Counted from the stretch's first letter, positions 25,987 to 50,902 are shown. The stretch is DNA of 64,000 bases from Candidatus Krumholzibacteriia bacterium (GCA_023270185.1 JAGLCY010000030.1:1134-65133); one strand, 5' to 3'. The notes: a model not told the origin generated them from the sequence alone. Numbers and translations are program-made.

Positions 25987-26000
25987 GATTCACCGACGAT

Positions 26001-27206: not shown

Positions 27207-29783
27207 ATGCGAATCCTCCTGGTAATGTTTCTGGCGGTGCCCGCTCTGGTTATGGCCGTCTCGCCCGTCGCGCTGGTTGGAATCCCCCTCGATCAACCCG
27301 GTAACCAGGCTCGCTTCAATGAAATTATAGGTGAGTTGGATGTGCTTACGATCAAACCGGGCTCCTTTGCCCGGGTGGCGGCCAGTGCTTTCGACCTGGA
27401 AGTCATGAGTGAAGCCGGCCTCACGTTTAATATCCTGAACCAGGACATGGAATCCACCTTCAGTTTCCCCGACAAAAGCCTTCATTACGGGGCTTATCAT
27501 ACCTGGAGCGAGAACATCGCATTCATCGACAGCCTGCGCCTGCTCTATCCCGATGTCATCAGTGCCAAGTGGTCCATCGGCCAAAGTCTCGAAGGCCGGG
27601 AAATCTGGGCCTTCCGAATTTCCGACAATCCGGATATAGACGAGAACGAGCCTGAGATCCTCATCGACGGCGCTCACCACGCCCGCGAGATCATGTCCTC
27701 GGAATTTCCAATCATGTTCGCCGAGTATTTGGCGCGTGGTTACGGTTCGGACACTGAAATCTCGTGGCTTCTCAACAACCGGGAATTGTACATCGTACCG
27801 ATCGTAAATCCGGACGGATTCATCTATAACGAGATGACCAATCCCGACGGTGGCGGAATGTGGCGAAAGAACCGCCGCGACAATGGCGATGGCACATTCG
27901 GAGTCGATCTGAACCGCAACTATACATACCAGTGGGGCTATGACGATAACGGCAGCTCCCCCACCACCAGCGCTTTGACATATCGAGGTCCCTCGGCCGG
28001 CAGTGAACCGGAGACCCAAGTCATGATGGACTTTATCAATAGCCGCAATTTTCGCACCCATGACTCGGTGCACACCTTCAGTAACGTGGTCATCTACCCT
28101 TGGAGCTACGTCGATGCCCCGGCCCCGGACAATGCGGTGCTGGCTTCCATGTCCAACGAAATGACCAGATACAACGGCTATCTTCCAGGCCAAGGTAGTC
28201 AGATCCTGTACTTCACAAATGGTGGCGCCAGGGATTGGGCCTACGGCGCAACAAACGAACACGCCAAGGTTTTCAGCTTCACTACCGAGATAGGAGGTTA
28301 TGGCGATGGTTTTTGGCCCTCGGAAGCTCGCCGTGACGAACTTTTCCAGGAGAACATCTGGCCCCACATCTATCTGATGCGGGCGGCAGGCGCCTTTGTG
28401 GCAGTGCACTCACCCGTGGTAACGCCCGACCCGGCCAAAACCATCGACCCCGGACAGTCCGGGATGTTGACTTTCATGGTACAGAATCAAGCTGCCTCCA
28501 CTACCAGCGCTCCCCTCACTATAACCTTGAGCTCGGATGACCCCTGGTTATATCTGGGCCAATACGAACGCTCGATCGCCGCTTTGTCGCCGCAGGGTTT
28601 CGATGACCTGACTGGCAACCCGATTCCTTTCAATGTGCATCCGGACTGTCCCTCCGGACACTTGACCGATGTGCTCATCACGGTGCCCATGCCGGAAGGA
28701 ACCAGAACTTTCACCCTGACTTTCCTGATTGGTGTCGGACAAAGCCTGCTGGTGGACAACATGGAAGGGGACACAAGCAATTGGGTATTCGATGATACCT
28801 GGGGTCAAACGACCAGCCAAAGTCATGGTTTTGGAGGTACGTCATTGACCGATTCGCCCGATGGCAGTTACAGCAACGAACAGTCCTCTGCCGCAACCCT
28901 GGTTGGCAGCTTTTACGCCACCGCCATTTCTTTCTGGCACCTCCACGTCATTGAACACGGTTACGACTTTGGCTACTTGCAGGTACGCCCCCTCGGTGGC
29001 GACTGGACCAACGTCGGATCGTATTCCGGTTTCCTGGGTGGCTGGACCCAGGTAACCGTTACCCTGGACCAATACCTGGGACAAAAGCTGGAAATCCGAT
29101 TTCTTCTGGAAACGGACATAGGTGTGGTCAATGACGGCTGGTATATAGACGATGTGGAAATATTCGGTCAATCCAACAGTAATCTCGCCCCTGATATTCC
29201 CCTGCCACTTTCCTCTGCCGGCGTTGACTCATCGCAGATACTTCGCGTGGCGGCGGGCCCGGATCCAGAGGGCAGTCAGGTCGTCTGCGGCTTTCGCCTC
29301 TACCACCGGATTGCGGGCCTCTGGAAATTGATGGCCGAAAGTGATGATATTCCCACGGTGGCCGAAGAGGCCTCCTGGACCACACCATCCCTTCCGGACG
29401 GAGAATACAAATGGCGGGCCTGGGCCGGGGACGGCGAAGTGCGAAGCGACCTTTCTGCTGACCTGGTCTTCCTCATCGACCACGTTTCAGCCGTAGACCA
29501 AATAGCCCTGGATGGTCCGACCTTCCGCATCCTGAGCGTGAAAGACGGGCGGGTTCGCCTGCAACTGAGCCTCGATAACGGTACCGACGTTGAGGTCGCC
29601 ATCTACGATGTACGCGGAGCCCGTATCCAGAGTCTGCACCGCGGCTGGTTGGACGGAGGTCTGCGTGTATTGATTTGGGATGGTTGCGATCGCGCCGGCC
29701 GCAACGCAGCCAGTGGCGTATACCTGGCCCAGGCACGGGTAGGCAAGCGGGTCCTTACCAACAGGTTGGTGCTTGTTCGTTGA
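27207..29783 (+). CDS. M14 family zinc carboxypeptidase with C-terminal T9SS/FlgD-Ig-like sorting domain
   Basis: Signal peptide. Zinc-binding HxxE (IDGAHHAREI), NPDGF, propeptide-like N-terminus. C-terminal ...GVYLAQARVGKRVLTNRLVLVR. Confidence 0.85.
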   Translation: MRILLVMFLAVPALVMAVSPVALVGIPLDQPGNQARFNEIIGELDVLTIKPGSFARVAASAFDLEVMSEAGLTFNILNQDMESTFSFPDKSLHYGAYHTWSENIAFIDSLRLLYPDVISAKWSIGQSLEGREIWAFRISDNPDIDENEPEILIDGAHHAREIMSSEFPIMFAEYLARGYGSDTEISWLLNNRELYIVPIVNPDGFIYNEMTNPDGGGMWRKNRRDNGDGTFGVDLNRNYTYQWGYDDNGSSPTTSALTYRGPSAGSEPETQVMMDFINSRNFRTHDSVHTFSNVVIYPWSYVDAPAPDNAVLASMSNEMTRYNGYLPGQGSQILYFTNGGARDWAYGATNEHAKVFSFTTEIGGYGDGFWPSEARRDELFQENIWPHIYLMRAAGAFVAVHSPVVTPDPAKTIDPGQSGMLTFMVQNQAASTTSAPLTITLSSDDPWLYLGQYERSIAALSPQGFDDLTGNPIPFNVHPDCPSGHLTDVLITVPMPEGTRTFTLTFLIGVGQSLLVDNMEGDTSNWVFDDTWGQTTSQSHGFGGTSLTDSPDGSYSNEQSSAATLVGSFYATAISFWHLHVIEHGYDFGYLQVRPLGGDWTNVGSYSGFLGGWTQVTVTLDQYLGQKLEIRFLLETDIGVVNDGWYIDDVEIFGQSNSNLAPDIPLPLSSAGVDSSQILRVAAGPDPEGSQVVCGFRLYHRIAGLWKLMAESDDIPTVAEEASWTTPSLPDGEYKWRAWAGDGEVRSDLSADLVFLIDHVSAVDQIALDGPTFRILSVKDGRVRLQLSLDNGTDVEVAIYDVRGARIQSLHRGWLDGGLRVLIWDGCDRAGRNAASGVYLAQARVGKRVLTNRLVLVR

Positions 29784-32344: not shown

Positions 32345-33544
32345 ATGCAAAGAAACTCATTCTTCCTGATTTTCTTCGTCCTTATGCTTTCCGCTTGCTC
32401 CGATCAGCCGGAGCGAATTGAATTCCAATTCAAGACCATGGGCACCATCGCCCGGTGCGACTTGGAACTACCCCCGGAACTTTCCCCAGCTGAGGCCCGG
32501 AGCATGGCCGTTGCCATCTGCGATTCCGTGACTGCCGTATTCAACACCTGGCAAGAGAACAGTGAGCTAAGCAGGCTGAACAACGCCCCGACAGGAACGG
32601 CCATCCCCGTATCACCCTGGCTGCGAGAATGTTTGGCGGCGGCCGAACGTCTACACATACTGAGCGACGGAGCCTTCGATCCCACAGCAGAACCCCTGAT
32701 GCGCCTATGGGGGTTCTACCGCCAAAAAGGATGCCTACCGTCCCAGGCTGAACTGGACTCTGCCCGGGCCCTGTTGGGGAAGTGGGATCTCACTGGTTCC
32801 GGGGAAGTCACAAAAACAACCGCAGGCACCAGATTCGATCTGGGCGGCATTGCCAAAGGTCTTGCGGTGGATAAAATTGCACGGCGCCTTCAAAAGGCTG
32901 GAGTGGACAACGGTCTTATCGATCTGGGGGGCAACTTGTTCTGCCTGGGCGGAGCGTCTGGTCGCCATGATTGGCGGGTAGGACTGCGCGACCCCCTGAA
33001 CCGGGACCGGTACTTCGCCTCCGTTGCCATCACCGGCTTGGGGATATCCACCAGCGGATCATACGAGCGCTTCGTCACCATCGACGGCCATCGCTATGGT
33101 CACATCATGAACCCGGCCACCGGCCGACCGGCCGAAGGGGTATTGAGCGCAACCGTGTTTGCCCCAACGGCCCTTCTGGCTGACGGTCTGTCGACGGCCA
33201 TGTTCGTCCTCGGACAGGACCGAAGCCGGGAACTGCTTGGGGATTTGGAAGAGCACGTGGAGGCCATCCTGGTAATTCCTGGCCGAGACATGGGTCAGGC
33301 CCGGGTTCTGGTCACGCCGGGCCTGGCAAACAGGGTCACTCTTGCACCCGAGTATGAGGAATTATACCAACTGGTCACCTGGTTCCAGCCCGACCAGGCG
33401 TCAGCATTTATCCCGCTATCGACTCCGCATCCTCGGCGCGTTCAGCCTCCAGCTCCTGGTCATAGCAGTAGGTACCACAGTTCAAGCAACGCCGTGCCTC
33501 GTAACGGGCGTCCTCCTCGTCGATGGTTCCTTCGACTTCCTTGA
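32345..33544 (+). CDS. apbE: FAD:protein FMN transferase ApbE (lipoprotein) - flavinylates RnfG/RnfD-type subunits
   Basis: Lipobox LMLSAC. ApbE core (FDLGGIAKGLAVDKIARRL...LIDLGGN...ISTSGSYER...HIMNP). The C-terminal 45 codons or so overlap the convergent rnfB-fusion gene; the real end is uncertain. Confidence 0.8.
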   Translation: MQRNSFFLIFFVLMLSACSDQPERIEFQFKTMGTIARCDLELPPELSPAEARSMAVAICDSVTAVFNTWQENSELSRLNNAPTGTAIPVSPWLRECLAAAERLHILSDGAFDPTAEPLMRLWGFYRQKGCLPSQAELDSARALLGKWDLTGSGEVTKTTAGTRFDLGGIAKGLAVDKIARRLQKAGVDNGLIDLGGNLFCLGGASGRHDWRVGLRDPLNRDRYFASVAITGLGISTSGSYERFVTIDGHRYGHIMNPATGRPAEGVLSATVFAPTALLADGLSTAMFVLGQDRSRELLGDLEEHVEAILVIPGRDMGQARVLVTPGLANRVTLAPEYEELYQLVTWFQPDQASAFIPLSTPHPRRVQPPAPGHSSRYHSSSNAVPRNGRPPRRWFLRLP

Positions 33545-35498
33545 ACGTACCCAGGCGATCTTCCAGCGATACGACCGGTTCATGAACCTTGGGCCGGGGC
33601 AGCACCCCCACGAGGGAGTCGAAAATCGACTCGGGCACCAGACCCGTTTGCCGCTGCTCAATGGGCGGAATTTCGCCCTCGGTCATGTAATAGTGAATGG
33701 AACGAGCCACAAATCTGCCGGCGCTGATGGCCTCGACCATCAGCCCGGGGCCGGTGAAACAATCACCGCCGGTAAAGATGTACGGCACGTCGGTCTGCAG
33801 AGTTTCTTCCTTGGCATCGATGGTGTTCCAACGAGTGGTCGGAAGGGTTGGCATACCGTCTTTTTCCAAAAAGTCCAAATCGGGCATCTGGCCCACCGCT
33901 TCGACCAGAAGTTCACAGGGTATGACTTCCTCCGTCCCCTTGACCGGGAACGGCCGACGTCGACCGTCGGAGTCGGGCTCGCCCAGTTTCATACCCAGCA
34001 CTTCCAGACCTGCGAGATTGTCACCCTCGGTGATGAACCGGTTCGGTGCGCAAAGGAAGCGGAACTGAATTCCCTCTTCCTCGGCAGCCACAATCTCAAC
34101 AGGGTTGGCAGGCATCTCGTCGCGGGAACGACGATAAACAATGGTCACGGATTCGGCACCGGCCCGCAGCGAGGTGCGCGCCGCGTCGATTGCCGTGTTG
34201 CCGCCACCGATGACAATGGCGTGCCCCTTGACCCTGGTCAATGGATCCTCCTGAAACAGCTCCAGGAATTTGATCCCGCTGATTACACCATCGGGTTTGA
34301 TTTCAGCCAGGCCCAGTTCACGATCGCGCCAGGCGCCCACAGCCAGGAATATGGCGTCGGCACCTTCCGCCCTCAGAAAATCCAGGGTGAAGTCACGACC
34401 AAGGCTGACACCCGTTCTGACCTTGACACCCAGGTCCAGGATACCCTGGATATCCCAATCCAGAATGGCCTTGGGTAGACGGTACTCGGGAATACCGTAG
34501 CGAAGCATGCCGCCCAGATCCGGCATCTGCTCGAAGAGAGTCACCGAATGACCGAGGCGCCGCAGGTAGTAGGCCGCACTCAAACCAGCTGGACCGCCAC
34601 CGACAACTGTAACCTTTTTGCCGGTCTCCGGTGCTACCGGGACATGCAGCCGTTTGCCGGAATTCATCTCATAGTCCGCGGCAAAACGTTTCAGATAGTT
34701 GATGGCGACCGGTTCGTCCTCGATCTGTCGGCGACAAGCCAGGGAGCAGGGCTCCGGACATACGCGTCCGGTGCTCAAGGGCAGTGGATTGTTTTCCTTG
34801 ACCGTCAAAAGGGCCAACTCGAACTCGCCGTTCTTGATGTGTTCGATATACTTGGGCACATTGACCTGGGCCGGACATTTCTGCCGGCAGGGGGCCAGAC
34901 ATTCCGAATACCGGTTCCAGTGCAAAATCTTGGTCGTTTCGGAGATGATACTGATAATACCCTTGGGGCACGCACGGACGCAGGCGCCACAACCCACGCA
35001 ACGGGCAGGATCAAATATGGGCAGTCCCGCATCACCCATGGTGATGGCACCAAATTGGCAAGCCCGCACACAGGTGCCCAGACCCAGACAGCCATGATCG
35101 CACATCAGCGGCCCATGATAGAAGAGCATGGCCGCGCGACAGTCGTCGAAACCGCCGTACTCGTATTTTCGCGTGGCGCGCGCCCCACCCTGGCAATCAG
35201 GGCAGGCCACCTGGGGCTCGTTATCCTGCATTTCCATGCCCATAAAAGCGGCAATATCGCGGGCTACTTCGGTCTGGCCCACGACGCAGGCATTTACCTC
35301 GGCCTTGCCTTCGACAATGGCCGCGGCACACGCGGAACAGCCGGCCATGCCACAGCCGCCACAGTTGGCCCCGGGCAACAAGTCGAGTATGCCTTTGATG
35401 CGCGGATCTTCCTCGACGTAGAACACGCGGGCAGCCACGCCCAGTCCTACTGCTGCTATTACAGCTATGCCACCCAGAATCATCGCAGGTATCAACAT
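33408..35498 (-). CDS. rnfB: RnfB-like Fe-S subunit fused to a GltD-like (glutamate synthase small subunit / NAD(P)H-dependent FAD oxidoreductase) domain
   Basis: N-terminus has a TM helix and the RnfB cluster motif LPGANCGGCGMAGCSACAAAI. Two 4Fe-4S ferredoxin motifs (CVGCGACVRACP and others). Then FAD/NAD(P)-binding Rossmann motifs VTVVGGGPAGLSAAYYL and AIVIGGGNTAIDAART, typical of GltD/dihydropyrimidine dehydrogenase PreT-like proteins. Confidence 0.85.
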   Translation of the reverse strand: MLIPAMILGGIAVIAAVGLGVAARVFYVEEDPRIKGILDLLPGANCGGCGMAGCSACAAAIVEGKAEVNACVVGQTEVARDIAAFMGMEMQDNEPQVACPDCQGGARATRKYEYGGFDDCRAAMLFYHGPLMCDHGCLGLGTCVRACQFGAITMGDAGLPIFDPARCVGCGACVRACPKGIISIISETTKILHWNRYSECLAPCRQKCPAQVNVPKYIEHIKNGEFELALLTVKENNPLPLSTGRVCPEPCSLACRRQIEDEPVAINYLKRFAADYEMNSGKRLHVPVAPETGKKVTVVGGGPAGLSAAYYLRRLGHSVTLFEQMPDLGGMLRYGIPEYRLPKAILDWDIQGILDLGVKVRTGVSLGRDFTLDFLRAEGADAIFLAVGAWRDRELGLAEIKPDGVISGIKFLELFQEDPLTRVKGHAIVIGGGNTAIDAARTSLRAGAESVTIVYRRSRDEMPANPVEIVAAEEEGIQFRFLCAPNRFITEGDNLAGLEVLGMKLGEPDSDGRRRPFPVKGTEEVIPCELLVEAVGQMPDLDFLEKDGMPTLPTTRWNTIDAKEETLQTDVPYIFTGGDCFTGPGLMVEAISAGRFVARSIHYYMTEGEIPPIEQRQTGLVPESIFDSLVGVLPRPKVHEPVVSLEDRLGTFKEVEGTIDEEDARYEARRCLNCGTYCYDQELEAERAEDAESIAG

Positions 35499-35514
35499 GC
35501 CTAGAACTCCCGAA

Positions 35515-36099
35515 TCAGTTGGTCATGCCCGCAAAGCCCATGAAGGCCAGCGACATGACGCCTGCAGTTACCAACGCAATGGCCGTTCCGCGCATGGCGA
35601 CCGGAACCGATGAGATAAAAAGACGCTCCCGCACACTGGCGAAGAGAAGAATTGCCAAAGCAAATCCCGCCGCACTGGACGCCGAGAAGACAATCATTTC
35701 CACAAAATCAAAACCGTGTTTGATGTTCAAAAGGGCTATACCCATGACCGCGCAGTTGGTTGTGATCAACGGCAGGAAGATTCCCAGCGAGTCGTACAGA
35801 CCCTTGCTCTGCTTCTTGATGAAGATCTCCACGAACTGTACCAAGGCAGCGATGACCAGGATGAAAACCAGGGTTTTGAGGTACTCCAGTCCCTGTGGTT
35901 CAAGTAGGTAGTGATATACGATCCAGGTAAAAATCGAAGCCAATGTGGACACGAAAATGACGGCCACACCCATACCGATAGCGGGACCCAGCTTCTTGGA
36001 CACGCCGCAGAAAGGACAGTTGCCAAGGTACTGCGCCAGCAGGATGTTATTGACGAAAATCGAGCCGATAACCAACAGAAACAGATCCATGGTATTCAC
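35515..36099 (-). CDS. rnfA: Rnf complex subunit RnfA
   Basis: Near-collinear with E. coli RsxA (LVNNILLAQYLGNCPFCGVSKKL...LGIFLPLITTNCAVMGIALLN...LMSLAFMGF). Confidence 0.9.
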   Translation of the reverse strand: MNTMDLFLLVIGSIFVNNILLAQYLGNCPFCGVSKKLGPAIGMGVAVIFVSTLASIFTWIVYHYLLEPQGLEYLKTLVFILVIAALVQFVEIFIKKQSKGLYDSLGIFLPLITTNCAVMGIALLNIKHGFDFVEMIVFSASSAAGFALAILLFASVRERLFISSVPVAMRGTAIALVTAGVMSLAFMGFAGMTN

Positions 36100-36102
36100 C
36101 CC

Positions 36103-36714
36103 CTAGGTCTGGATAAAGAATTCGCCGCGACGACGACTCCACGCGTTCATCAGACCCAGCAGCAAACCCAGACACAGGAAGGCGCCGGGAGCCTGGACCA
36201 TGAAACCGAAAGGTTCGAAACTGTCAGGGAAAACCGCCATACCGAACCAGGTGCCGACACCCAGGATCTCGCGGATCGACCCGACCAGGGTCAACGATAT
36301 CGAAAAACCCAACCCCACACTCAGACCGTCGGCCATGGACAGATGCACCGGATTGCGCGAAGCAAAGGCCTCGGCCCTGCCCAGAATGATGCAATTGACA
36401 ACGATCAGCGGGATGTAGATTCCCAACTGTTGCGAGAGAGGGAAAAAGAAGGCCTTCATCGCCAGTTCGACGATCACCACCAGGGTGGCGATCACCACGA
36501 TATAGCTGGCGATACGCACCTTGTCGGGAATAACTTTCCGCAAAAGCGAGATGAACATGTTCGAGAAGATCAGCACAAAGGTCACGGCAATCCCCATACC
36601 AAGGCCGTTCTCGGCTGTGGCCGTCACGGCCAGCGTCGGACAAAGACCCAGAACCATCCGAAACGGCGGCAGATCACGCCAGAGACCGTGGGTCAGCGTT
36701 TGGCGAAAATTCAT
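36103..36714 (-). CDS. rnfE: Rnf complex subunit RnfE
   Basis: GLCPTLAVT motif and polytopic membrane profile homologous to RsxE/NqrD. Confidence 0.9.
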   Translation of the reverse strand: MNFRQTLTHGLWRDLPPFRMVLGLCPTLAVTATAENGLGMGIAVTFVLIFSNMFISLLRKVIPDKVRIASYIVVIATLVVIVELAMKAFFFPLSQQLGIYIPLIVVNCIILGRAEAFASRNPVHLSMADGLSVGLGFSISLTLVGSIREILGVGTWFGMAVFPDSFEPFGFMVQAPGAFLCLGLLLGLMNAWSRRRGEFFIQT

Positions 36715-37334
36715 CAGCCTTCACCTCCGGAAACTGCGCCGCCTGAAGACCGCTCCTCAATGAGCAAGAGGATCTCCTGACGGTGATCCCGCAACATTTC
36801 CACCACTTGGTTGGTACCGTCGACCATTGCCCGGGACGAGAATGTGGCACCGGTAATGGCGTCTATTCCACCACCGTCACTGGTCAGAGATACCGGTTGG
36901 TCGAGGGTCAAACCTGTCCATTGCTGTCGGAAGCTTGCCAACTCGACCTTGGCTCCCACGCCCGGTGTTTCGCTGTGACTGACGATTTCCACGCCCAACA
37001 CACGGTCGTCGCGCGGATCCAGACCGATCATGATCACGATGTCGCCACTGTAGCCGCCGTGACCGGCCGCTTCGACGGCCAGGCCCGTTACTTCCCCGGC
37101 TTCGCGCAGATAAAACACCGGGTAGGTCTGGTCCCCCACCGGAACAGTCAACTTCTCGGTAAGCAGTCCCTCGGCCGGTTGCTTGAACAACCGCTCCAGG
37201 GCAGGTCCGCGCACATAGAAATCCTCTTGCATTTCGATGCGGCCGGCCAAACTCGTGCGCACGTAGGCCAGGGCCGCCGCACTCAGGGAGCAGATGACTC
37301 CCAACACAAGAACCAGGTGAGCAATCTCACGCAA
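36714..37334 (-). CDS. rnfG: Rnf complex subunit RnfG (FMN-binding)
   Basis: N-terminal TM helix. FMN_bind motif ...DAITGATFSSRAMVDG with the conserved Thr for covalent FMN. Confidence 0.85.
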   Translation of the reverse strand: MREIAHLVLVLGVICSLSAAALAYVRTSLAGRIEMQEDFYVRGPALERLFKQPAEGLLTEKLTVPVGDQTYPVFYLREAGEVTGLAVEAAGHGGYSGDIVIMIGLDPRDDRVLGVEIVSHSETPGVGAKVELASFRQQWTGLTLDQPVSLTSDGGGIDAITGATFSSRAMVDGTNQVVEMLRDHRQEILLLIEERSSGGAVSGGEG

Positions 37335-38307
37335 CGTCCTGCACCTCCCGACCCACTACCGATGGTGTTATGCGGTCCAACAACGGACTGCAGAAATTGG
37401 TCAACAGGACGGCGAAGATCGCGCCGTCGACATGAACCGAAAACGTGCGGATAAGCACCAGCAGGGTTCCCATGAGCAGCCCGTATAGAAACATGGGCCA
37501 GGGATTGACGGGCGAGGTCGTATGCTCCGGCGCAAGAAAGAAAATCATCAGTACAGTGCTGCCCGCCAACAAATGAAACACCGGGCCCACGGAACGATCG
37601 GCCGCAACCAGACCCAGCAAAGCCGCACATGCCACGACTCCCAGAATTCCCCCTGCCGGGATCTGCCAGGGAATTTCGCGAACCAGCATCAGGAACAGGC
37701 CGCCCAGCAGGAGCCACAACACCAAGGCATTGCCCACACCGCCGACCTGCCTGCCGAGAAAGAGATCGACAAGGTTGAAATCGACTTGGGCGCTCGCTCC
37801 CAGGGTCTTGACCAGCCGCATCGGTTCAACCATGGTCACCGACCAGGCTTGGCCCACCAGGGACTCGGTATAGTCCAGACGCGAAGGCCATGAAACAGCC
37901 AGGACGGCATAACCCAGGGCCACCGGATGCACAGGATAGGCACCCCAGCCGCCATAGAGTTTTTTCCCGATGATCACCGTCAGGACCGAGCCGATGACTA
38001 CCAGCCACCACGATGCCCCGACCGGCAACAGAAAGGCCAGTAACACTCCAAATGTTACACAGCTGTAATTGGACGCGAAATCACGGTTGGGCACCAACGC
38101 GTTCCAAACCATTTCAGCTACAACCGAAGCTACAACCGCGAGGGCGACCACGCGTAAACCGGCAAAACCGAAGTAGAACATACCGGCGGCTATGGCCGGC
38201 AACAGGGCCAGAAGCCAGGTCAGCTGGATTCCGGGAAGAGAGCTGCCGTCACGCCAATGGGAACTGGCTGCAATATTGAATTTTGACTGCGGAGCATCTG
38301 GATTCAT
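37327..38307 (-). CDS. rnfD: Rnf complex subunit RnfD (NqrB-like)
   Basis: Polytopic membrane protein in the canonical position between rnfC and rnfG. Confidence 0.85.
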   Translation of the reverse strand: MNPDAPQSKFNIAASSHWRDGSSLPGIQLTWLLALLPAIAAGMFYFGFAGLRVVALAVVASVVAEMVWNALVPNRDFASNYSCVTFGVLLAFLLPVGASWWLVVIGSVLTVIIGKKLYGGWGAYPVHPVALGYAVLAVSWPSRLDYTESLVGQAWSVTMVEPMRLVKTLGASAQVDFNLVDLFLGRQVGGVGNALVLWLLLGGLFLMLVREIPWQIPAGGILGVVACAALLGLVAADRSVGPVFHLLAGSTVLMIFFLAPEHTTSPVNPWPMFLYGLLMGTLLVLIRTFSVHVDGAIFAVLLTNFCSPLLDRITPSVVGREVQDVA

Positions 38308-38311
38308 TTCC

Positions 38312-39592
38312 TCAACCCCTAAAATTTACGGCCATCTTCACCATTTGAAGCAAAGGCCGGTGGGCTGGACACACGAAGGCACAAAGACCGCATTCGATGC
38401 AGGCCGTGGGATGATAGAGTTGAGCTTCGTCAAATTGGTCGAATTCGACGCAACGCCCGATCAGATGTACTTGCAGATTCACTGGACAAGCCCGGGTACA
38501 GCGGCCGCAATTTACGCAGATGAGATTCGTGTCGGCGACGATATCCTTTGCCTTAAGCACATGGACACCCGCCTGGAACTTGCTCAGTGGTGTTTCCAGC
38601 GTGAATTGGGCCGTACCGGTCATGGGACCACCCATGATCACGCGGTCTCCATCCTCGACAACCAGATTCTGACTGGCCAGCAAATCGCCGATGGACGTGC
38701 CCACGACTGTACGCACGGTAACGGGCTGGAAATCACGGCTGGAAGAAAGGGTGACCGTCTTGCGAATGCAGGGACGACCTTCAAGGGCATCATACATATC
38801 CAGCAGTTGTTCCACCGATATGACCGCCACACCACCCGACCGATAGGATGCATTGTTGGGCACCTTGATGCCCGTCAAACGCCCCACGTACTGTCGCTCT
38901 ATCCGACCGCGAAAATCGTTCGACAGCGGAACAACTTCCGCCAGATCGGAAAAGCTCTCACTGGCCCACTCCGCTTCGGCCTTGGACACAGCCAACAGGA
39001 TCCGTGCCTGGGGAATGATCTCGGCCAAACGTCGCAACGCCTCCTGCACCTCCTCCGTTCGCGTCCGCAGCAGCAGCCGGAAACTACAGATCGTGGGTTC
39101 CTGATTCACGCCCTTGATCACGATCTGGATTATCTCCGGGTAGTCCTCGATATCTACCTCACTGTCGTTATGGCCAGGGGTGGTCCATGGCGAGACAACC
39201 CCCGCGGCCCTCAACAGGTCCACACGTGTGGCCGACTGTGGGTCGATATCACACTGCCGCAACAGTTCGTCGCCGACCAACGGCGGCGTATCGTTTTTTT
39301 CGATGACAACCGCCGGCACGTGAAAACTGCGGGCCGCCCACATGGTCTTCAACTCAACAACTTTTCCACTGATTGAAGCGTGGATGAAATTGCCGTGTTC
39401 CGACCGGCCGATCACCTGGTTGCACGCCACCTCGTCGCCCGCCTGCACCAGGGGCCGAAAGAGAATCTGCCCGGGATACTCCAGGGGGATAAGTACCTGA
39501 TCGGGCGCCGGCAAATCCACGATTTCCAGGGCGCAGCCCACAGGGACAGGCACACGTGAACCTGGCGGCTTGAGGACATCCAAAATACTCAT
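38312..39592 (-). CDS. rnfC: Rnf complex subunit RnfC
   Basis: RnfC N-terminal barrel. Two 4Fe-4S motifs CVNCGRCTRACP and CIECGLCAFVCP. NADH/FMN-binding middle region. Confidence 0.9.
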   Translation of the reverse strand: MSILDVLKPPGSRVPVPVGCALEIVDLPAPDQVLIPLEYPGQILFRPLVQAGDEVACNQVIGRSEHGNFIHASISGKVVELKTMWAARSFHVPAVVIEKNDTPPLVGDELLRQCDIDPQSATRVDLLRAAGVVSPWTTPGHNDSEVDIEDYPEIIQIVIKGVNQEPTICSFRLLLRTRTEEVQEALRRLAEIIPQARILLAVSKAEAEWASESFSDLAEVVPLSNDFRGRIERQYVGRLTGIKVPNNASYRSGGVAVISVEQLLDMYDALEGRPCIRKTVTLSSSRDFQPVTVRTVVGTSIGDLLASQNLVVEDGDRVIMGGPMTGTAQFTLETPLSKFQAGVHVLKAKDIVADTNLICVNCGRCTRACPVNLQVHLIGRCVEFDQFDEAQLYHPTACIECGLCAFVCPAHRPLLQMVKMAVNFRG

Positions 39593-39611: not shown

Positions 39612-40262
39612 TCAGATAAGATGGCAGGCCTTGCATATGGCCTGGTTCTGGTCGTCGATGAAGCGCTCGACGGCCTGTACGCGGTGACATGATGTGCAAC
39701 CGTCGTGATAGATCTCGACTACGGGCCGGAGACTGTGACAACCGTCACAGGCGTGTTCCTCGATCTCCAGCAGTTCCGGGTGTGAGAACTCCTCCGGGGT
39801 GTATTCCGGATCGTCGTGACATTCTTGACAGTCGCCGGGCTCTCCCGCGACCGTCGATTCTTCCGCCATCGATGGATGACAGGCACGGCAACTGCGCGCC
39901 GCCGTATCCGGCTGCAAAAGGTGACAGTCCGTGCAGGAGTGATCCTCGATCTCAAGCAACTCCTCGTGATCGAAAGCACCGTGCACGTATTCGGGATCGT
40001 CATGACATTCACTGCAGGCGTAGGCCTGACCCTGAATCAGCGCATGGTGGCAATCCACACACCGGGCACCGTATTCCTGGTGGGCAGCATGGGTGAAAAG
40101 CACTGCACCGCCACCGTTGTCGAGATAGAAACGGCGACCGGCAACAGACGGATCCGGCTGCAGGTATCCGTAGACCGCCACCGCTGCAGCAACCAAAGCA
40201 AGGATGACCAACGGCCGGTTTACAGACGCCAAAGGGTTCCTGTTGGACATGGCCCTCACCAC
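39612..40262 (-). CDS. Membrane-anchored octaheme c-type cytochrome
   Basis: Eight CxxCH motifs in 216 aa (CVDCH, CSECH, CTDCH, CRACH, CQECH, CDGCH, CTSCH, CKACH) and an N-terminal signal anchor. First gene-pair of the rnf operon. Confidence 0.85.
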   Translation of the reverse strand: MVRAMSNRNPLASVNRPLVILALVAAAVAVYGYLQPDPSVAGRRFYLDNGGGAVLFTHAAHQEYGARCVDCHHALIQGQAYACSECHDDPEYVHGAFDHEELLEIEDHSCTDCHLLQPDTAARSCRACHPSMAEESTVAGEPGDCQECHDDPEYTPEEFSHPELLEIEEHACDGCHSLRPVVEIYHDGCTSCHRVQAVERFIDDQNQAICKACHLI

Positions 40263-40732
40263 TCCATGCTGTCGTCGAGAATGATCTTGTGCTCATCATC
40301 AGGATCGATCAAATGCCAGTGGCAACCAGTGCGCATGCAGAAATAGAAAGGAACCCTTACGGTGGAGATTCCCACCAAGACACAGGCAACGTGGGAGTCA
40401 CCACGGTCACACTTGCGCTCACCGGCCCGCAACGACGCCTGGCAATGCCAGCAGCGCAGGTCGGTCACCTCCTCACCTTCAGTGAGCTGGAGATTGCTCT
40501 TGCGTTCGAATGCGTTGAGGTAGGGATTGAGTTGCATCCAGCCGGTGTTGCCGTCAGGGTCAATGGTCACAAGGTGAAGTAAATTGTCCTTCATCAGACT
40601 GCGGGAACAATGGGGACAGTAGCAGCCCAGGAAAGAGCCGGACTTCAGAACTGTGCGCTCGTTGTAGTTGTGTTCATCCCAAACAATCTCTTGCCAACTG
40701 TCCTTCGGGCGGGATTTGTCCTGACTCATCAA
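40256..40732 (-). CDS. Cysteine-rich (putative metal/zinc-ribbon) hypothetical protein leading the rnf operon
   Basis: 158 aa with 9 Cys in CYCPHC / CWHC / C..C-type clusters. 7-nt overlap with the cytochrome gene start. AAGGGG RBS. Confidence 0.5.
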   Translation of the reverse strand: MMSQDKSRPKDSWQEIVWDEHNYNERTVLKSGSFLGCYCPHCSRSLMKDNLLHLVTIDPDGNTGWMQLNPYLNAFERKSNLQLTEGEEVTDLRCWHCQASLRAGERKCDRGDSHVACVLVGISTVRVPFYFCMRTGCHWHLIDPDDEHKIILDDSMEW

Positions 40733-43095: not shown

Positions 43096-44256
43096 CTATT
43101 TCAGCAGCAGCATTTTGCGACTCTGCCTCTCACCCCCCGACAAAACAGAATAGAAGTAGCTTCCCGACGGCAAGGAGCGACCATCACCGCCTCGTCCCCG
43201 CCAAGTAAATTCCTGCGGCCCCGAGGCGAGATGCCCCAGGTCCGATGCATCGACCAGCCGACCGGCGCTGTTGAAGAATTCGATCCTGACGGTGCCCGAC
43301 TTATGCATCGTGAAAAGTAATTTGGTGGAAGGATTAAAAGGGTTGGGGCTGTTTTGCATCAGTTCGACTATGGAAGTGGGAACGACCCCACCCTGAACAC
43401 CGGTGACCGATTCTGTTGCCCAGATATCCGAGTTCCCGGACCGACCTGATGTGAACGCCAACTGCATTCCATCGGGTGCCCAGGTCGGCCGTGTATCATA
43501 TGAAGGGTCTATGGTCACCTGGATGGCCGTTCCGCCTGTAGCCGGAATCACCCAGATATCCGAATTTCCACTTCGTTCAGACTTGAACGCGATCCAATTT
43601 CCCAGCGGTGACCAGGAAGGACGGGCGTCGTCCGCGGGGTCTGATGTCAATTGAACCGGAGTGCCTCCGTTGCTCGGAATAATCCAAATGTCCCCGGATG
43701 GGCCGGCAAATGCAATTTGACTGCCGTCGGGTGACCAGGTCGGATAGGTCCCTCCCATACTCGTCAGTTGTTCAGGCACCCCTCCGCTTGATAGCACCAC
43801 CCAGATGTCGTTGCCCGAACCACAGCTGGAGGCAAACGCAATCTTTCTCCCATCAGGGGACCAGGATGGTTTGGCGTCGATACTGGAACCGGACGTCACC
43901 TGAGTTGGCGCCCCACCGGTTGCCGATACGGCCCAGATGTCAAAACTCCCGGCTCGGTCCGATGCGAAGGCGATTTGAGTACCGTCGGGTGACCACGCCG
44001 GTTCCGTATCGGCGGCCGGATCAATGGTAATCTGATAAGCAACGCCGCCAACACTCGGGATGACCCAGATGTCCGGGTTTCCACTCCGGTCCGACTTGAA
44101 GGCGATCTCCGTACCGACCGGTGACCAGGCGGGCCGATTGTCCGCGGCGACATTTGTCGTTATCTGGATGATCTCGGCGAATGCCGCTCCACAGAGAAGA
44201 ACCAAAGTGGCACTACAATAGACAGCAACTATTGAAATCCTGCGAAATCTGAACAT
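43096..44256 (-). CDS. TolB-like PD40 beta-propeller repeat protein with T9SS C-terminal sorting domain
   Basis: Start at MFRFRRISIVAVYC (signal). About seven PD40 repeats (P.WSPDG..IAF.S.RSGN.DIW). C-terminal MQNSPNPFNPSTKLLF...GSYFYSVLSGGERQSRKMLLLK. Confidence 0.8.
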   Translation of the reverse strand: MFRFRRISIVAVYCSATLVLLCGAAFAEIIQITTNVAADNRPAWSPVGTEIAFKSDRSGNPDIWVIPSVGGVAYQITIDPAADTEPAWSPDGTQIAFASDRAGSFDIWAVSATGGAPTQVTSGSSIDAKPSWSPDGRKIAFASSCGSGNDIWVVLSSGGVPEQLTSMGGTYPTWSPDGSQIAFAGPSGDIWIIPSNGGTPVQLTSDPADDARPSWSPLGNWIAFKSERSGNSDIWVIPATGGTAIQVTIDPSYDTRPTWAPDGMQLAFTSGRSGNSDIWATESVTGVQGGVVPTSIVELMQNSPNPFNPSTKLLFTMHKSGTVRIEFFNSAGRLVDASDLGHLASGPQEFTWRGRGGDGRSLPSGSYFYSVLSGGERQSRKMLLLK

Positions 44257-44386
44257 GAATTTCCCCTTTCTGTCCCCGGTTGGTGATATACCAAACCCTC
44301 CCAAGCCAATTCGTTATTATTCTAACATAGTTCTCAGAGCCTCTTGGGATATTTCGCCCAGCACATTCCAATGGTCTGGGAAAAAC

Positions 44387-45682: not shown

Positions 45683-46281
45683 GGCTTCTCTCAATACACT
45701 GGTGGTCTGTCCGTGTTGGAACACGGGGCAGTCGTAGCCGGTGCAATGCTCGCGCCGCCCTGGTTGCAGGACATACGAACGCACCGGTTTCCAGCAGAAC
45801 ACCGGGAGAAGCGCTAAAACCTGGATGAGAAAAGACTCACCCTGCGTGGATCTCCAGTTCTACCGGTCTAGATAGACGGCCCAGATGTGCCCGATTAGGC
45901 TCCAACACGGTTCGCTGACGGCGATACCGGTTGGTCTTCCTAGGGATATTGGGCAACTGGTTACTGGTTGCAGGGTCATCGTGAAATCCTCGGAGAGGGG
46001 AAAAAATTGGGCGGAAAATGCCACCCGGACGAGGCGCACCTTACTTTATGTCTGAATAAATGTCAAGCCGGAGCACGCGGACTTGATCACCACAAAGCAA
46101 TGGAGGCAGGACGTTTATAGGGCAATTTTTTTGATCTTGTGCCTCACTGGTATTCTGTCCGTATTACCACGAAGGCGGATATGATAGATTACCAGGGAGA
46201 CCGAATGTCGGCGGGATGGACAACCGGAGGGCAGAAACAGCAGTGACATTTCATCCCGCTCCAAACCTACAATCCCCCCGG

Positions 46282-49304: not shown

Positions 49305-49416
49305 AGGTTTTCCAAGCCCGGCTGCCTAACCTCCGCGACAGACGCGGAACACGGCGAAGGGCCGAAACGGTCGCGCGGGAAACGGTGCGGTCAGCTCCCG
49401 TACTTGGAAGGAAAAC

Positions 49417-50442: not shown

Positions 50443-50457
50443 AAACAGGGAGAGGCC

Positions 50458-50898: not shown

Positions 50899-50902
50899 TC
50901 CC

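What the first reader, a model, noticed from the sequence alone, without database searches (positions are those of the whole stretch)
33408..35498. RnfB fused to a GltD-like NAD(P)H:FAD oxidoreductase domain
The terminal gene of a complete rnfCDGEAB operon encodes a 696-aa protein. The N-terminus is the membrane-anchored RnfB Fe-S domain (LPGANCGGCGMAGCSAC) with two ferredoxin-type clusters. The C-terminal 400 aa or so carry two Rossmann dinucleotide motifs characteristic of glutamate synthase small subunit / PreT-like enzymes. In canonical Rnf, RnfB is the ferredoxin-interacting subunit and RnfC binds NADH. A pyridine-nucleotide-binding flavoprotein fused to RnfB suggests this complex links NAD(P)H at the RnfB side. 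It would then act as an ion-translocating transhydrogenase-like or NADPH-coupled Rnf variant rather than a ferredoxin:NAD oxidoreductase.
Basis: partly seen in the sequence, partly recalled or inferred. Interest (0 to 1): 0.6.

Follow-up and report, generated by a model that had tools for sequence, protein, structure and literature searches.

The report
Rnf pump with NADPH-flavoprotein-fused RnfB
The fused gene is real: this membrane ion pump carries its NAD(P)H-binding flavoprotein on subunit RnfB, has lost the usual NADH site on RnfC, and is encoded next to a multihaem cytochrome, but the type ("Rnf2") is already described in sulfate reducers and this is a new example in another phylum.

Summary
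Window 33408..35498 (-) is one 696-aa ORF. Residues 1-192 are RnfB (TM helix, PF04060 Fe-S domain, 2x[4Fe-4S] domain). Residues 193-680 are a GltD/NfnB/StnC-like module (Fer4_20, FAD Rossmann, NADPH-type Rossmann "VYRRSRDEMPAN"). At least 115 full-length homologues rule out a frameshift artefact.

RnfC has lost all four FMN/NADH motifs, so "transhydrogenase-like" fails. RnfD lacks the threonine that carries covalent FMN. RnfG's FMN site and the RnfA/E cysteines are intact. An octahaem cytochrome c gene precedes rnfC.

Most likely reading: NAD(P)H -> FAD -> Fe-S chain of RnfB -> RnfA/E -> RnfG-FMN -> periplasmic cytochrome c, coupled to ion translocation and reversible.

This architecture is already published as "Tol2-type Rnf" or "Rnf2" of Desulfobacteraceae (Wöhlbrand 2013 as cited in PMC5109826; PMC11887813). 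No biochemistry was found in the library.

- The type occurs in Krumholzibacteriota and, by source names, Zixibacteria, Marinimicrobia, Calditrichaceae and Acidobacteriota-type lineages.
- The loss of the RnfD FMN site, which none of the papers read mentions.
- An NADPH-type rather than NADH-type motif.
- A circularly permuted Fe-S motif in the C-terminal tail.

Verdict: new member of a known kind; moderate interest.

The parts
33408..35498 (-). rnfB::gltD-like fusion gene, 696 aa
   Evidence: ORF. Pfam and NCBIfam domain layout. More than 115 full-length homologues. AF2 mean pLDDT 78.8.
34923..35498 (-). RnfB part (residues 1-192): N-terminal TM helix, [4Fe-4S] FeS domain (C46, C49, C54, C71), 2x[4Fe-4S] ferredoxin domain (C133/137/143/147 and C167/170/173/177)
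   Evidence: PF04060 at 41-72 and Fer4 at 135-183. RnfB models cover 1-191. Matches A. woodii RnfB 9eri_B residues 6-197. The Cys are invariant in 115 sequences.
33411..34922 (-). GltD/NfnB/StnC-like FAD and 2x[4Fe-4S] NAD(P)H oxidoreductase module (residues 193-696)
   Evidence: Fer4_20 plus Pyr_redox_2. PRK12771 489 bits. 9bov_A, 9n5u_A, 8oh5_C and 5jca_L by sequence and by fold.
34515..34616 (-). FAD-binding Rossmann motif, VVGGGPAGLSAAYYL
   Evidence: Translation. Pyr_redox / NAD_binding_8 hits at 295-333.
34104..34226 (-). NAD(P)H-binding Rossmann motif with NADPH-type signature, GGGNTAIDAART...VYRRSRDEMPAN
   Evidence: Translation. Aligns with the NADPH-site sequences of NfnI-L and StnC. 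Distribution by clade.
33465..33488 (-). C-terminal invariant CxxCxxxC (C671, C674, C678), the circularly permuted first half of the GltD-type Fe-S motif
   Evidence: Translation. Invariant. The tail 636-675 aligns with residues 7-46 of NfnI-L (weak stretch, -0.4 bits) and, within high-scoring full-length alignments, with the same position in StnC and 9bov_A.
35515..36099 (-). rnfA (194 aa)
   Evidence: PF02508, TIGR01943 at 249.6 bits. C28 and C116 conserved.
36103..36714 (-). rnfE (203 aa)
   Evidence: PF02508, NF009070 at 264.7 bits. C25 and C108 conserved.
36714..37334 (-). rnfG (206 aa), FMN-attachment motif DAITGAT retained
   Evidence: FMN_bind, best NCBIfam hit NF045876 RnfG_DVU2794. 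Aligns to 9eri_G and 7zc6_G. The motif is kept in 29/29 fused loci.
37327..38307 (-). rnfD (326 aa) lacking the FMN-attachment threonine (SVTMVEPM instead of [ST]xATPL)
   Evidence: PF03116. Alignment to 9eri_D and 7zc6_D. Survey of loci. Thr153 is the attachment site in 7zc6 (PMC9588780).
38312..39592 (-). rnfC (426 aa): RnfC_N barrel and two C-terminal [4Fe-4S] motifs kept, NuoF-like FMN/NADH motifs lost
   Evidence: No PF01512 hit; TIGR01945 205.7 bits, below its cutoff of 245.95. Alignment to 7zc6_C, 9eri_C and 8ahx_C. Motif tables.
39612..40262 (-). Octahaem c-type cytochrome (216 aa, 8 CxxCH, N-terminal hydrophobic anchor or signal), c3/c7-type
   Evidence: ORF. Cytochrome_C7 and Cytochrom_c3_2. 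HmcA-like. 1z1n_X and 1duw_A. A multihaem ORF lies upstream of rnfC in 20 of 23 evaluable fused loci.
40256..40732 (-). 158-aa Cys-rich ORF of unknown function at the head of the operon, overlapping the cytochrome start by 7 nt
   Evidence: ORF. No Pfam hit. 44 homologues, nearly all 155-168 aa, with seven invariant Cys. Same position in L001, L003 and L005. AF2 all-beta, no PDB fold match.
32345..33544 (+). apbE (FAD:protein FMN transferase), convergent with and overlapping the 3' end of the fusion gene
   Evidence: PF02424, E = 2.6e-76. NF007774.

Best explanation
This is an Rnf2-type ('Tol2-type') Rnf complex. It is a redox-driven ion pump in which the input module, RnfB, has acquired an NfnB/StnC-like FAD and 2x[4Fe-4S] NAD(P)H dehydrogenase.

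Proposed electron path:
1. NAD(P)H, NADPH-type by motif in this organism, gives a hydride to the FAD.
2. Single electrons pass through the two GltD-type [4Fe-4S] clusters.
3. They continue through the RnfB ferredoxin-domain clusters and the N-terminal RnfB [4Fe-4S] cluster.
4. They reach the intramembrane RnfA/E cluster.
5. They reach the covalent FMN of periplasmic RnfG.
6. They leave to the operon-encoded periplasmic octahaem cytochrome c, and from there to whatever that cytochrome serves.

The classical output branch has lost both flavin sites (RnfD covalent FMN; RnfC FMN and NADH site). It is probably structural, or does something not yet known.

Electron flow is coupled to Na+ or H+ translocation. 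It is probably reversible, so cytochrome c could reduce NAD(P)+ at the expense of the ion gradient.

Shown here: domain content, motif presence and loss, synteny, and co-variation across loci. Inferred: cofactor occupancy, the electron path, nucleotide preference, ion coupling and direction.
For: Fusion and domains.

The GltD part is closest, by sequence and fold, to the GltD-like subunits of NfnABC (9bov_A at 42% identity, 9n5u_A), StnC (8oh5_C) and NfnI-L. PMC12221290 states that StnC binds NADP(H) in its part homologous to NfnB-type proteins. The motif GGGNTAID..YRRSRDEMPAN matches theirs.

RnfC:
- No Complex1_51K hit.
- GIVGxGGAxFP, NxxECEPYLTxD, EDNK and YPQGxEKQLI are all replaced.
- 0 of 24 RnfCs in fused loci carry any of the four motifs.
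- 22 of 22 Clostridia-type RnfCs carry GxGGAxFP and ECEP.

RnfD: the threonine aligned to Thr153 of 7zc6_D is Glu. The motif is absent at the aligned site in 27 of 27 fused loci and present in about 21 of 23 canonical ones. Thr153 carries the FMN (PMC9588780).

The input half is intact. RnfG [ST]GA[TS] is kept in 29 of 29 fused loci. RnfA C28/C116 and RnfE C25/C108 are conserved. ApbE is adjacent.

A multihaem cytochrome c lies directly upstream of rnfC in 20 of 23 evaluable fused loci.

Methanosarcina Rnf, which is reported to pass electrons from ferredoxin via the cytochrome MmcA to methanophenazine, shows the same RnfC and RnfD motif losses.

Literature:
- The same architecture is described, and a cytochrome c3 exit proposed, for Desulfobacteraceae Rnf2, which is made constitutively (PMC5109826; PMC11887813).
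- NQR arose from Rnf by an analogous swap of RnfB for an NADH-oxidising flavoprotein (PMC12174285).
Against: - No biochemistry exists for any complex of this type.
- RnfC keeps both [4Fe-4S] motifs and has its own newly conserved motifs (SPWTxPG, EEPT, YxxRIER). This suggests a retained but unknown redox role that the model does not explain.
- Three fused loci (L020, L025, L026) have no cytochrome gene upstream of rnfC.
- In D. alaskensis G20 the operon cytochrome DhcA was dispensable for Rnf-dependent growth (PMC4215793). That Rnf is of the small-RnfB kind according to PMC11887813.
- The AF2 model is unreliable for residues 89-185, so continuity of the Fe-S chain from FAD to the N-terminal cluster was not checked geometrically.
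- RnfD could still bind FMN non-covalently.
- NADPH preference rests on motif similarity only. A Desulfobulbales clade has FRFS instead of YRRS.
Confidence: 0.55

Rival explanations
1. Ferredoxin stays the main donor. Reduced ferredoxin docks on the RnfB ferredoxin domain and drives the pump, with cytochrome c as acceptor. The GltD-like module is a secondary entry or exit that equilibrates the RnfB Fe-S chain with NAD(P)H, like a tethered Fd:NADP+ oxidoreductase. This is essentially the published suggestion for Rnf2: 'ferredoxin (and maybe also NADH)'.
For: The RnfB part aligns with canonical RnfB through its first dicluster domain. Stand-alone NfnB homologues act as monofunctional Fd:NADP+ oxidoreductases (PMC12221290). 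The proposal itself is in the PMC11887813 supplement.
Against: The extended polyferredoxin region, which in canonical RnfB is described as the ferredoxin acceptor (PMC12174285), is replaced here by the flavoprotein. No ferredoxin-binding feature could be tested.
Confidence: 0.22
2. Flavin-based electron bifurcation or confurcation. The NfnB/StnC-like FAD splits the NADPH electron pair. One electron goes down the Rnf chain to high-potential cytochrome c. The other goes up to ferredoxin, perhaps through the orphaned RnfC clusters or an exposed RnfB cluster.
For: The closest solved relatives are the NADPH-binding subunits of the bifurcating NfnABC, StnABC and NfnI enzymes. RnfC keeps two [4Fe-4S] motifs without a flavin. 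Orphan paralogues sit beside NuoF-like genes, as in Stn/NfnABC.
Against: No second electron branch or second nucleotide site is visible in the sequence. GltD and DPD use the same module without bifurcation. There is no geometric evidence.
Confidence: 0.1
3. One reading: an ion-translocating transhydrogenase, with NADPH at RnfB-GltD, NADH at RnfC, and electrons crossing the membrane module between them.
For: Two cytoplasmic peripheral subunits remain, and one clearly binds a pyridine nucleotide.
Against: RnfC lacks every FMN/NADH motif and RnfD lacks its FMN threonine. The potential difference between NADPH and NADH is too small to drive a pump of this kind; this last point is an inference.
Confidence: 0.03
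4. Same machine, but the physiological direction is reversed. Periplasmic cytochrome c, reduced by periplasmic or extracellular donors, feeds electrons inward to make cytoplasmic NAD(P)H, using the ion-motive force.
For: Rnf is reversible (PMC12174285, abstract seen). Rnf is needed for growth on H2 and formate in D. alaskensis (PMC4215793 and PMC4841214).
Against: Nothing in the window points to a periplasmic donor system. No other cytochrome gene lies in the 64 kb. The G20 data concern a small-RnfB Rnf.
Confidence: 0.1

Closest known systems
Rnf2 / 'Desulfobacula toluolica Tol2-type' Rnf of Desulfobacteraceae (Wöhlbrand et al. 2013 as cited in PMC5109826; PMC11887813)
   Same: - RnfB of about 700 aa with a pyridine-nucleotide oxidoreductase domain.
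- RnfC without the NuoF-like FMN/NADH domain.
- A cytochrome c gene in the cluster.
- Gene order rnfCDGEAB.
- The window protein aligns end to end with the Desulfosarcina alkanivorans protein (51% identity, residues 1-688).
   Different: - A different phylum (Krumholzibacteriota).
- An octahaem rather than a 4-5-haem cytochrome.
- An extra 158-aa Cys-rich gene at the operon head, found only in the window clade.
- The published descriptions speak of NAD+/NADH, whereas the motif here is NADPH-type.
Canonical Rnf (A. woodii 9eri, C. tetanomorphum 7zc6, A. vinelandii 8ahx)
   Same: All six subunits are present. The RnfA/E cysteines, the RnfG FMN threonine and the RnfB N-terminal cluster domain are conserved.
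   Different: RnfB carries a flavoprotein instead of a polyferredoxin tail. RnfC lacks the FMN/NADH motifs. RnfD lacks the FMN-attachment Thr. A cytochrome c gene is present.
Na+-NQR
   Same: Same logic. A pyridine-nucleotide-oxidising flavoprotein with a TM anchor feeds the RnfA/E-like core. The RnfC/NqrA position no longer oxidises or reduces NAD(H) (PMC12174285).
   Different: - The input flavoprotein is GltD/NfnB-like and fused to RnfB, not FNR-like NqrF.
- RnfC keeps its two [4Fe-4S] motifs, whereas NqrA has no cofactors.
- NqrB keeps its covalent FMN, whereas this RnfD does not.
- The likely acceptor is a cytochrome c, not a quinone.
Methanosarcina acetivorans Rnf with MmcA
   Same: A multihaem cytochrome gene lies directly upstream of rnfC. 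RnfC and RnfD lack the canonical flavin motifs in the Methanosarcina loci L060 and L066. NAD is not a substrate.
   Different: RnfB is small and unfused, and ferredoxin is the donor. MmcA is a roughly 500-aa pentahaem protein.
NfnABC / StnABC NADPH-binding subunit (9bov_A, 9n5u_A, 8oh5_C) and NfnI-L (5jca_L)
   Same: Best sequence and fold match for residues 182-679. Same permuted position of the RCLxC motif as in 9bov_A and StnC. Same YRR[ST] NADPH-type motif.
   Different: Those are soluble bifurcating transhydrogenases with extra formate-dehydrogenase-like domains. Here the module is N-terminally joined to a membrane-anchored RnfB and ends just after the Cys motif.

Membership tests
Rnf complex (RnfABCDGE, ferredoxin:NAD+ oxidoreductase) | Six subunits RnfC, D, G, E, A, B encoded together | tested here: met
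   Pfam and NCBIfam hits for all six, contiguous on the minus strand at 33408..39592.
Rnf complex (RnfABCDGE, ferredoxin:NAD+ oxidoreductase) | RnfA/RnfE cysteine pairs for the intramembrane Fe-S centre | tested here: met
   RnfA C28/C116 and RnfE C25/C108 are conserved in fused and unfused loci.
Rnf complex (RnfABCDGE, ferredoxin:NAD+ oxidoreductase) | RnfG covalent-FMN threonine in the [ST]GA[TS] motif | tested here: met
   DAITGAT aligns with the A. woodii and C. tetanomorphum sites. Kept in 29/29 fused loci.
Rnf complex (RnfABCDGE, ferredoxin:NAD+ oxidoreductase) | RnfD covalent-FMN threonine (Thr153 of 7zc6_D) | tested here: not met
   Glu at the aligned position. The motif is absent at the aligned site in 27/27 fused loci.
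Rnf complex (RnfABCDGE, ferredoxin:NAD+ oxidoreductase) | RnfC NuoF-like FMN/NADH-binding domain | tested here: not met
   No PF01512 hit; below the TIGR01945 cutoff. All four motifs replaced.
Rnf complex (RnfABCDGE, ferredoxin:NAD+ oxidoreductase) | Ferredoxin:NAD+ oxidoreductase activity coupled to Na+/H+ transport | not testable with these tools
   Requires biochemistry.
Rnf2 / Tol2-type Rnf (PMC5109826, PMC11887813) | [quoted passage not shown] | tested here: met
   696 aa. RnfB models cover 1-191 and Pyr_redox_2 covers 295-594.
Rnf2 / Tol2-type Rnf (PMC5109826, PMC11887813) | RnfC lacking the NADH-ubiquinone oxidoreductase (FMN) and SLBB domains | tested here: met
   No PF01512 or PF10531 hit. 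Only a weak NQRA_SLBB hit, below its cutoff.
Rnf2 / Tol2-type Rnf (PMC5109826, PMC11887813) | c3-type cytochrome gene in the cluster | tested here: met
   Octahaem ORF at 39612..40262, with Cytochrome_C7 / c3_2 hits.
Rnf2 / Tol2-type Rnf (PMC5109826, PMC11887813) | Full-length homology to a Desulfobacteraceae large RnfB | tested here: met
   tblastn gives 51% identity over residues 1-688 to Desulfosarcina alkanivorans PL12 (L008). It gives 52% over 1-389 to a Desulfobacula MAG (L045), where the contig ends.
GltD / NfnB / StnC-like NADPH-dependent Fe-S flavoprotein module | Fer4_20 domain with the Cys ligands of two [4Fe-4S] clusters | tested here: met
   PF14691 at 86 bits. C200, C204, C208, C247, C251, C255, C671, C674 and C678 are invariant. 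Cofactor occupancy was not tested.
GltD / NfnB / StnC-like NADPH-dependent Fe-S flavoprotein module | FAD Rossmann plus NADPH Rossmann with the YRR[ST] signature | tested here: met
   Aligned with NfnI-L and StnC.
GltD / NfnB / StnC-like NADPH-dependent Fe-S flavoprotein module | Fold | tested here: met
   Foldseek against PDB: 9bov_A E = 5.6e-47, 5jca_L E = 4.1e-37, TM-score normalised to target about 0.8 for NfnI-L. pLDDT is about 90 in this part.
GltD / NfnB / StnC-like NADPH-dependent Fe-S flavoprotein module | NADPH versus NADH specificity and catalytic activity | not testable with these tools
   Motif-level inference only.
Na+-NQR | NqrF (FNR-like FAD domain plus [2Fe-2S]) as input subunit; NqrA without cofactors; NqrB with covalent FMN | tested here: not met
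   The input subunit is RnfB::GltD. NCBIfam Nqr models score far below their cutoffs. RnfC keeps two Fer4 motifs. RnfD lacks the FMN Thr.

The most novel reading that the evidence does not exclude
The NfnB/StnC-like FAD on RnfB is a bifurcating flavin. The complex would couple NADPH oxidation to simultaneous reduction of a high-potential periplasmic cytochrome c, through the ion-pumping membrane core, and of low-potential ferredoxin, via the flavin-less RnfC clusters or an exposed RnfB cluster. That would make it a membrane-bound, ion-coupled, cytochrome-linked bifurcating enzyme. It would have evolved in parallel to NQR and be spread across Desulfobacterota and FCB-group phyla.
Probability: 0.1. 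Interest if true: 0.85.

Novelty: new member of a known kind. Interest (0 to 1): 0.4.

Why it matters
Rnf is usually annotated, and fed into metabolic models, as ferredoxin:NAD+ oxidoreductase. This type has no NADH site on RnfC and carries a NAD(P)H flavoprotein on the input side. Treating it as Fd:NAD+ mis-assigns the link between the cytoplasmic nucleotide pool and periplasmic cytochromes.

It is reported as core and constitutively abundant in Desulfobacteraceae (PMC11887813). It may therefore be a widespread route from NAD(P)H to periplasmic or extracellular electron transfer in anoxic sediments.

It is also a second, independent instance of the step that produced NQR: a pyridine-nucleotide dehydrogenase replacing the ferredoxin-accepting end of RnfB. 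The joint loss of the RnfD and RnfC flavin sites makes a concrete, testable prediction about where electrons leave the complex.

Tried and rejected
- **Frameshift or two-gene artefact.** Rejected: the ORF is continuous and the fusion is conserved.
- **C-terminal CxxCxxxC as a remnant of a molybdopterin Fe4S4 domain, with C580 as fourth ligand.** Rejected: C580 is clade-specific. The tail aligns with the N-terminus of NfnI-L, so the motif is circularly permuted.
- **Geometry of the Fe-S chain from the AF2 model.** Not possible: residues 89-185 have pLDDT below 50 and no coordinates are available.
- **Regex for the NADPH motif and for RnfG.** Too strict. Replaced by alignment-based read-outs.
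- **First MAFFT run.** Timed out.
- **Genome-contig scan.** The 80 loci are a sample, not a census, and do not include the closest Krumholzibacteria relatives.
- **Promoter and terminator scan.** Uninformative.
- **Literature searches for 'RnfB + GltD', 'RnfB + glutamate synthase + fused' and 'RnfC + cytochrome c + NADH binding + Desulfovibrio'.** These found nothing relevant. The relevant papers surfaced only through 'RnfB + sulfate reducing bacteria'.
- **The 2025 RNF/NQR review.** It does not mention this type.

Full report
**Observation**

The minus strand of the window carries one uninterrupted ORF at 33408..35498, 696 aa, with an ATG start.

Pfam places the following:
- The RnfB-type Fe-S domain PF04060 at residues 41-72.
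- A 4Fe-4S dicluster domain at 135-183.
- The DPD/GltD-type Fer4_20 domain at 195-280.
- Pyr_redox_2 at 295-594.

In NCBIfam, the RnfB models cover residues 1-191. GltD-like models (PRK12771 at 489 bits, PRK12814, gltA, gltD_gamma_fam, YgfK) cover 196-680. Both Rossmann motifs were read off the DNA.

The gene is the last of a tightly packed rnfC-D-G-E-A-B set. Gaps or overlaps between neighbouring genes are 1-19 nt, and every member was confirmed by Pfam and NCBIfam.

The fusion is not an artefact:
- An identical protein is deposited from a Candidatus Krumholzibacteria MAG.
- More than 115 full-length homologues at 55-95% identity share the architecture.
- Residues are invariant on both sides of the junction.

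Two more genes belong to the operon:
- An octahaem c3/c7-type cytochrome with an N-terminal hydrophobic anchor (39612..40262).
- A 158-aa Cys-rich ORF (40256..40732) that overlaps the cytochrome start by 7 nt.

An apbE flavin-transferase gene converges on the 3' end.

The same order recurs in Desulfopila aestuarii (L001) and on a 1.3-Mb contig whose products NCBI names as Candidatus Krumholzibacteria (L003). That order is small ORF, cytochrome, rnfC lacking PF01512, D, G, E, A, then the fused rnfB.

**The RnfC premise fails**

Canonical RnfC holds an FMN in a NuoF-like domain and reduces NAD+ there (PMC12174285; PMC9588780).

The window RnfC has no Complex1_51K hit and scores below the TIGR01945 cutoff. 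I aligned it to the solved RnfCs 7zc6_C, 9eri_C and 8ahx_C. All four signature motifs are replaced:

| Canonical motif | Window RnfC |
|---|---|
| GIVGxGGAxFP | GVVSPWTTPGH |
| NxxECEPYLTxD | KGVNQEPTICSF |
| EDNK | SKAE |
| YPQGxEKQLI | FRGRIERQYV |

GGPMxG and both C-terminal CxxCxxCxxxCP motifs are kept.

The replacements are themselves conserved among the sampled members of the 120 closest RnfC homologues. This argues for a changed function rather than decay.

**Co-variation across loci**

A genome-contig scan returned 80 loci. About 50 loci carry a fused RnfB and about 30 an unfused one. I called ORFs and scored them with phmmer and MAFFT.

- No full-length rnfC in a fused-RnfB locus (0 of 24) has any of the four motifs.
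- All 22 Clostridia-type unfused loci have GxGGAxFP and ECEP.
- A third class also lacks them: unfused RnfB with a cytochrome gene. It includes Methanosarcina (L060, L066, with MmcA) and a Thermodesulfobacteriota MAG (L058).

A multihaem ORF of 4-11 CxxCH lies directly upstream of rnfC in 20 of 23 evaluable fused loci. It is absent in L020, L025 and L026.

**A second loss, in RnfD**

In C. tetanomorphum, FMN is phosphoester-linked to RnfD Thr153. It relays electrons from RnfG-FMN to riboflavin and on to the RnfC clusters (PMC9588780).

In the window RnfD the aligned residue is Glu: SVTMVEPM against TVTTATPL (A. woodii) and GVTTATPL (C. tetanomorphum).

The [ST]xATP motif is missing at the aligned site in 27 of 27 fused loci. 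It is present in about 21 of 23 canonical loci. It is also missing in the Methanosarcina loci and in L051, L055 and L058.

By contrast, the input side is intact:
- The RnfG attachment motif [ST]GA[TS] is kept in 29 of 29 fused loci.
- The RnfA (C28, C116) and RnfE (C25, C108) cysteines are conserved.

So the input half of the pump keeps its cofactor sites, and the classical output half has lost both flavin sites. None of the papers I read mentions the RnfD loss. The PMC11887813 supplement calls the other subunits "very similar".

**The flavoprotein module**

Sequence and fold searches agree on the closest solved relatives:
- NfnABC subunit A: 9bov_A at 42% identity, and 9n5u_A.
- StnC: 8oh5_C.
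- NfnI-L: 5jca_L.
- Then DPD and GltD.

PMC12221290 states that StnC binds NADP(H) in its part homologous to NfnB-type proteins.

AF2 gives pLDDT of about 90 for this part, but below 50 for residues 89-185. I therefore could not check the geometry of the Fe-S chain.

The second Rossmann motif is GGGNTAIDAART..VTIVYRRSRDEMPAN. It matches NfnI-L (GGGNTAMDAARS..VWILYRRTRKEMTA) and StnC (..IIYRRTIDEMPA).

By clade, the signature varies:
- YRR[ST] holds in the window clade, in Desulfobacteraceae Rnf2 and in Desulfovibrionaceae.
- A Desulfobulbales/Geopsychrobacteraceae clade has GAGNVAMD..FRFSRDxMEAN.

NADPH preference in the window organism is therefore a motif-level inference, not a result.

The invariant C-terminal RCLNCGxxCY is not a truncated extra domain. 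The tail (636-675) aligns, weakly, with residues 7-46 of NfnI-L. It aligns, within high-scoring full-length alignments, with the same post-Rossmann position in StnC and 9bov_A. It is therefore the circularly permuted first half of the GltD-type cluster motif.

**Mechanism proposed**

The path I propose is: NAD(P)H -> FAD -> two GltD-type [4Fe-4S] -> RnfB dicluster domain -> RnfB N-terminal [4Fe-4S] -> RnfA/E centre -> RnfG-FMN -> periplasmic octahaem cytochrome c. Electron flow would be coupled to Na+ or H+ movement and would be reversible.

- Shown: domains, motifs, synteny and co-variation.
- Inferred: cofactor occupancy, electron path, nucleotide preference, ion coupling and direction.

The logic parallels NQR. 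There RnfB was replaced by the NADH-oxidising NqrF, and NqrA carries no cofactor (PMC12174285). It also parallels Methanosarcina Rnf, which uses its cytochrome as the exit.

Unexplained: RnfC keeps two [4Fe-4S] motifs and has newly conserved motifs, and three fused loci lack a neighbouring cytochrome.

**Already known**

- PMC5109826 (2016), citing Wöhlbrand et al. 2013, describes a "D. toluolica Tol2-type Rnf". Its RnfB is about 700 aa and carries NAD+-binding sites. Its RnfC lacks the NADH-ubiquinone oxidoreductase and SLBB domains. Five of its subunits are detected in D. multivorans under all tested substrate conditions.
- PMC11887813 (2025) calls it Rnf2. It places it in the Desulfobacteraceae core genome and reports constitutive, abundant formation. 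It notes the cluster-encoded cytochrome c3. It proposes that ferredoxin "and maybe also NADH" oxidation reduces that cytochrome, feeding Qrc.
- PMC11434368 (2024) reports the same gene in Desulfovibrionaceae as "loss of rnfB" with an FAD-dependent oxidoreductase in its place, and draws the NQR analogy.
- The 2025 RNF/NQR review does not mention it.
- I found no biochemical or structural study in the library.

The window protein aligns end to end with the Desulfosarcina alkanivorans large RnfB at 51% identity. It is therefore a member of this published type.

**What is added here**

- Occurrence outside sulfate reducers. Source names give Krumholzibacteria, Zixibacteria, Marinimicrobia, Calditrichaceae, Thermoanaerobaculales and Fibrobacteraceae.
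- The RnfD FMN-site loss, and its co-variation with the RnfC loss and with the presence of a cytochrome.
- The NADPH-type signature and its clade-specific alternative.
- The permuted Fe-S motif.
- A clade-specific 158-aa Cys-rich operon gene with no family or fold match.
- A set of roughly 25 orphan RnfB-N::GltD paralogues away from rnf genes. One sits beside a NuoF-like gene and one beside a split formate dehydrogenase.

**Verdict**

The NAD(P)H site on RnfB holds. The transhydrogenase reading does not. This is a new member of a known but biochemically uncharacterised kind, of moderate interest.

Noticed in passing
window 40256..40732 (-): A 158-aa Cys-rich ORF sits at the head of the operon and overlaps the cytochrome start. 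It has 44 homologues, nearly all 155-168 aa, with invariant C39, C42, C94, C97, C108, C132 and C137. It has no Pfam family. The AF2 model is all-beta and has no PDB fold match. It was found only in the window clade (window, L001, L003, L005).
   Followed up: partly
L022-L024, L027, L029, L030, L032, L033, L035-L044, L046, L049, L050: About 25 Desulfobacterales and Syntrophobacteria loci encode a full-length RnfB-N::GltD protein (36-41% identity) with no rnf genes detected in the DNA held. Several of these contigs are short. Their second Rossmann motif is divergent. In L032 the gene follows a NuoF/HydB-like gene (Complex1_51K plus NADH_4Fe-4S). In L046 it is divergent from a split formate-dehydrogenase alpha subunit.
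   Followed up: partly
L060 and L066 (Methanosarcina), rnfC and rnfD: Methanosarcina RnfC lacks the GxGGAxFP, ECEP, EDNK and YPQGxEKQLI motifs. Its RnfD has no [ST]xATP motif in my alignments. A preprint (10.1101/2022.07.20.500911) states that the known cofactor sites are conserved in M. acetivorans.
   Followed up: partly
L001, L005 and 31 of 117 homologues: A Desulfobulbales/Geopsychrobacteraceae clade of the fusion has GAGNVAMD...FRFSRDxMEAN where the others have GGGNTAID...YRRSRDEMPAN. This may mark a switch in nucleotide preference.
   Followed up: no
window 32345..33544 (+) against 33408..35498 (-): The apbE ORF runs 137 nt into the 3' end of the convergent fusion gene. Its last ~90 residues lie beyond the ApbE domain and are Pro/Arg/Ser-rich, so the true stop may be earlier or the tail may be spurious.
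   Followed up: no
L051, L055, L058 (Thermodesulfobacteriota / Ca. Desulfofervidaceae): These rnf operons have a small, unfused RnfB but an RnfC and RnfD that lack the flavin motifs. L058 also has a tetrahaem cytochrome upstream. In L051 the RnfB is cut by the contig end, so it could be fused.
   Followed up: partly
window 48753..52728 (+): A run of ORFs whose N-termini look like molybdenum-cofactor biosynthesis proteins (MobB-, MoaA-, MobA- and MoeA-like). This was judged by eye only and not scanned.
   Followed up: no
window 24001..26000: GC content rises to 0.663 against about 0.58 for the rest of the window. The rise falls inside a 989-aa ORF (23017..25986).
   Followed up: no
window 27207..29783 (+), 43096..44304 (-), 44387..45802 (-): An M14 carboxypeptidase and a PD40 beta-propeller protein both end in FlgD_ig / type IX secretion-like C-terminal domains. 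A PcfJ-like protein lies next to them.
   Followed up: no
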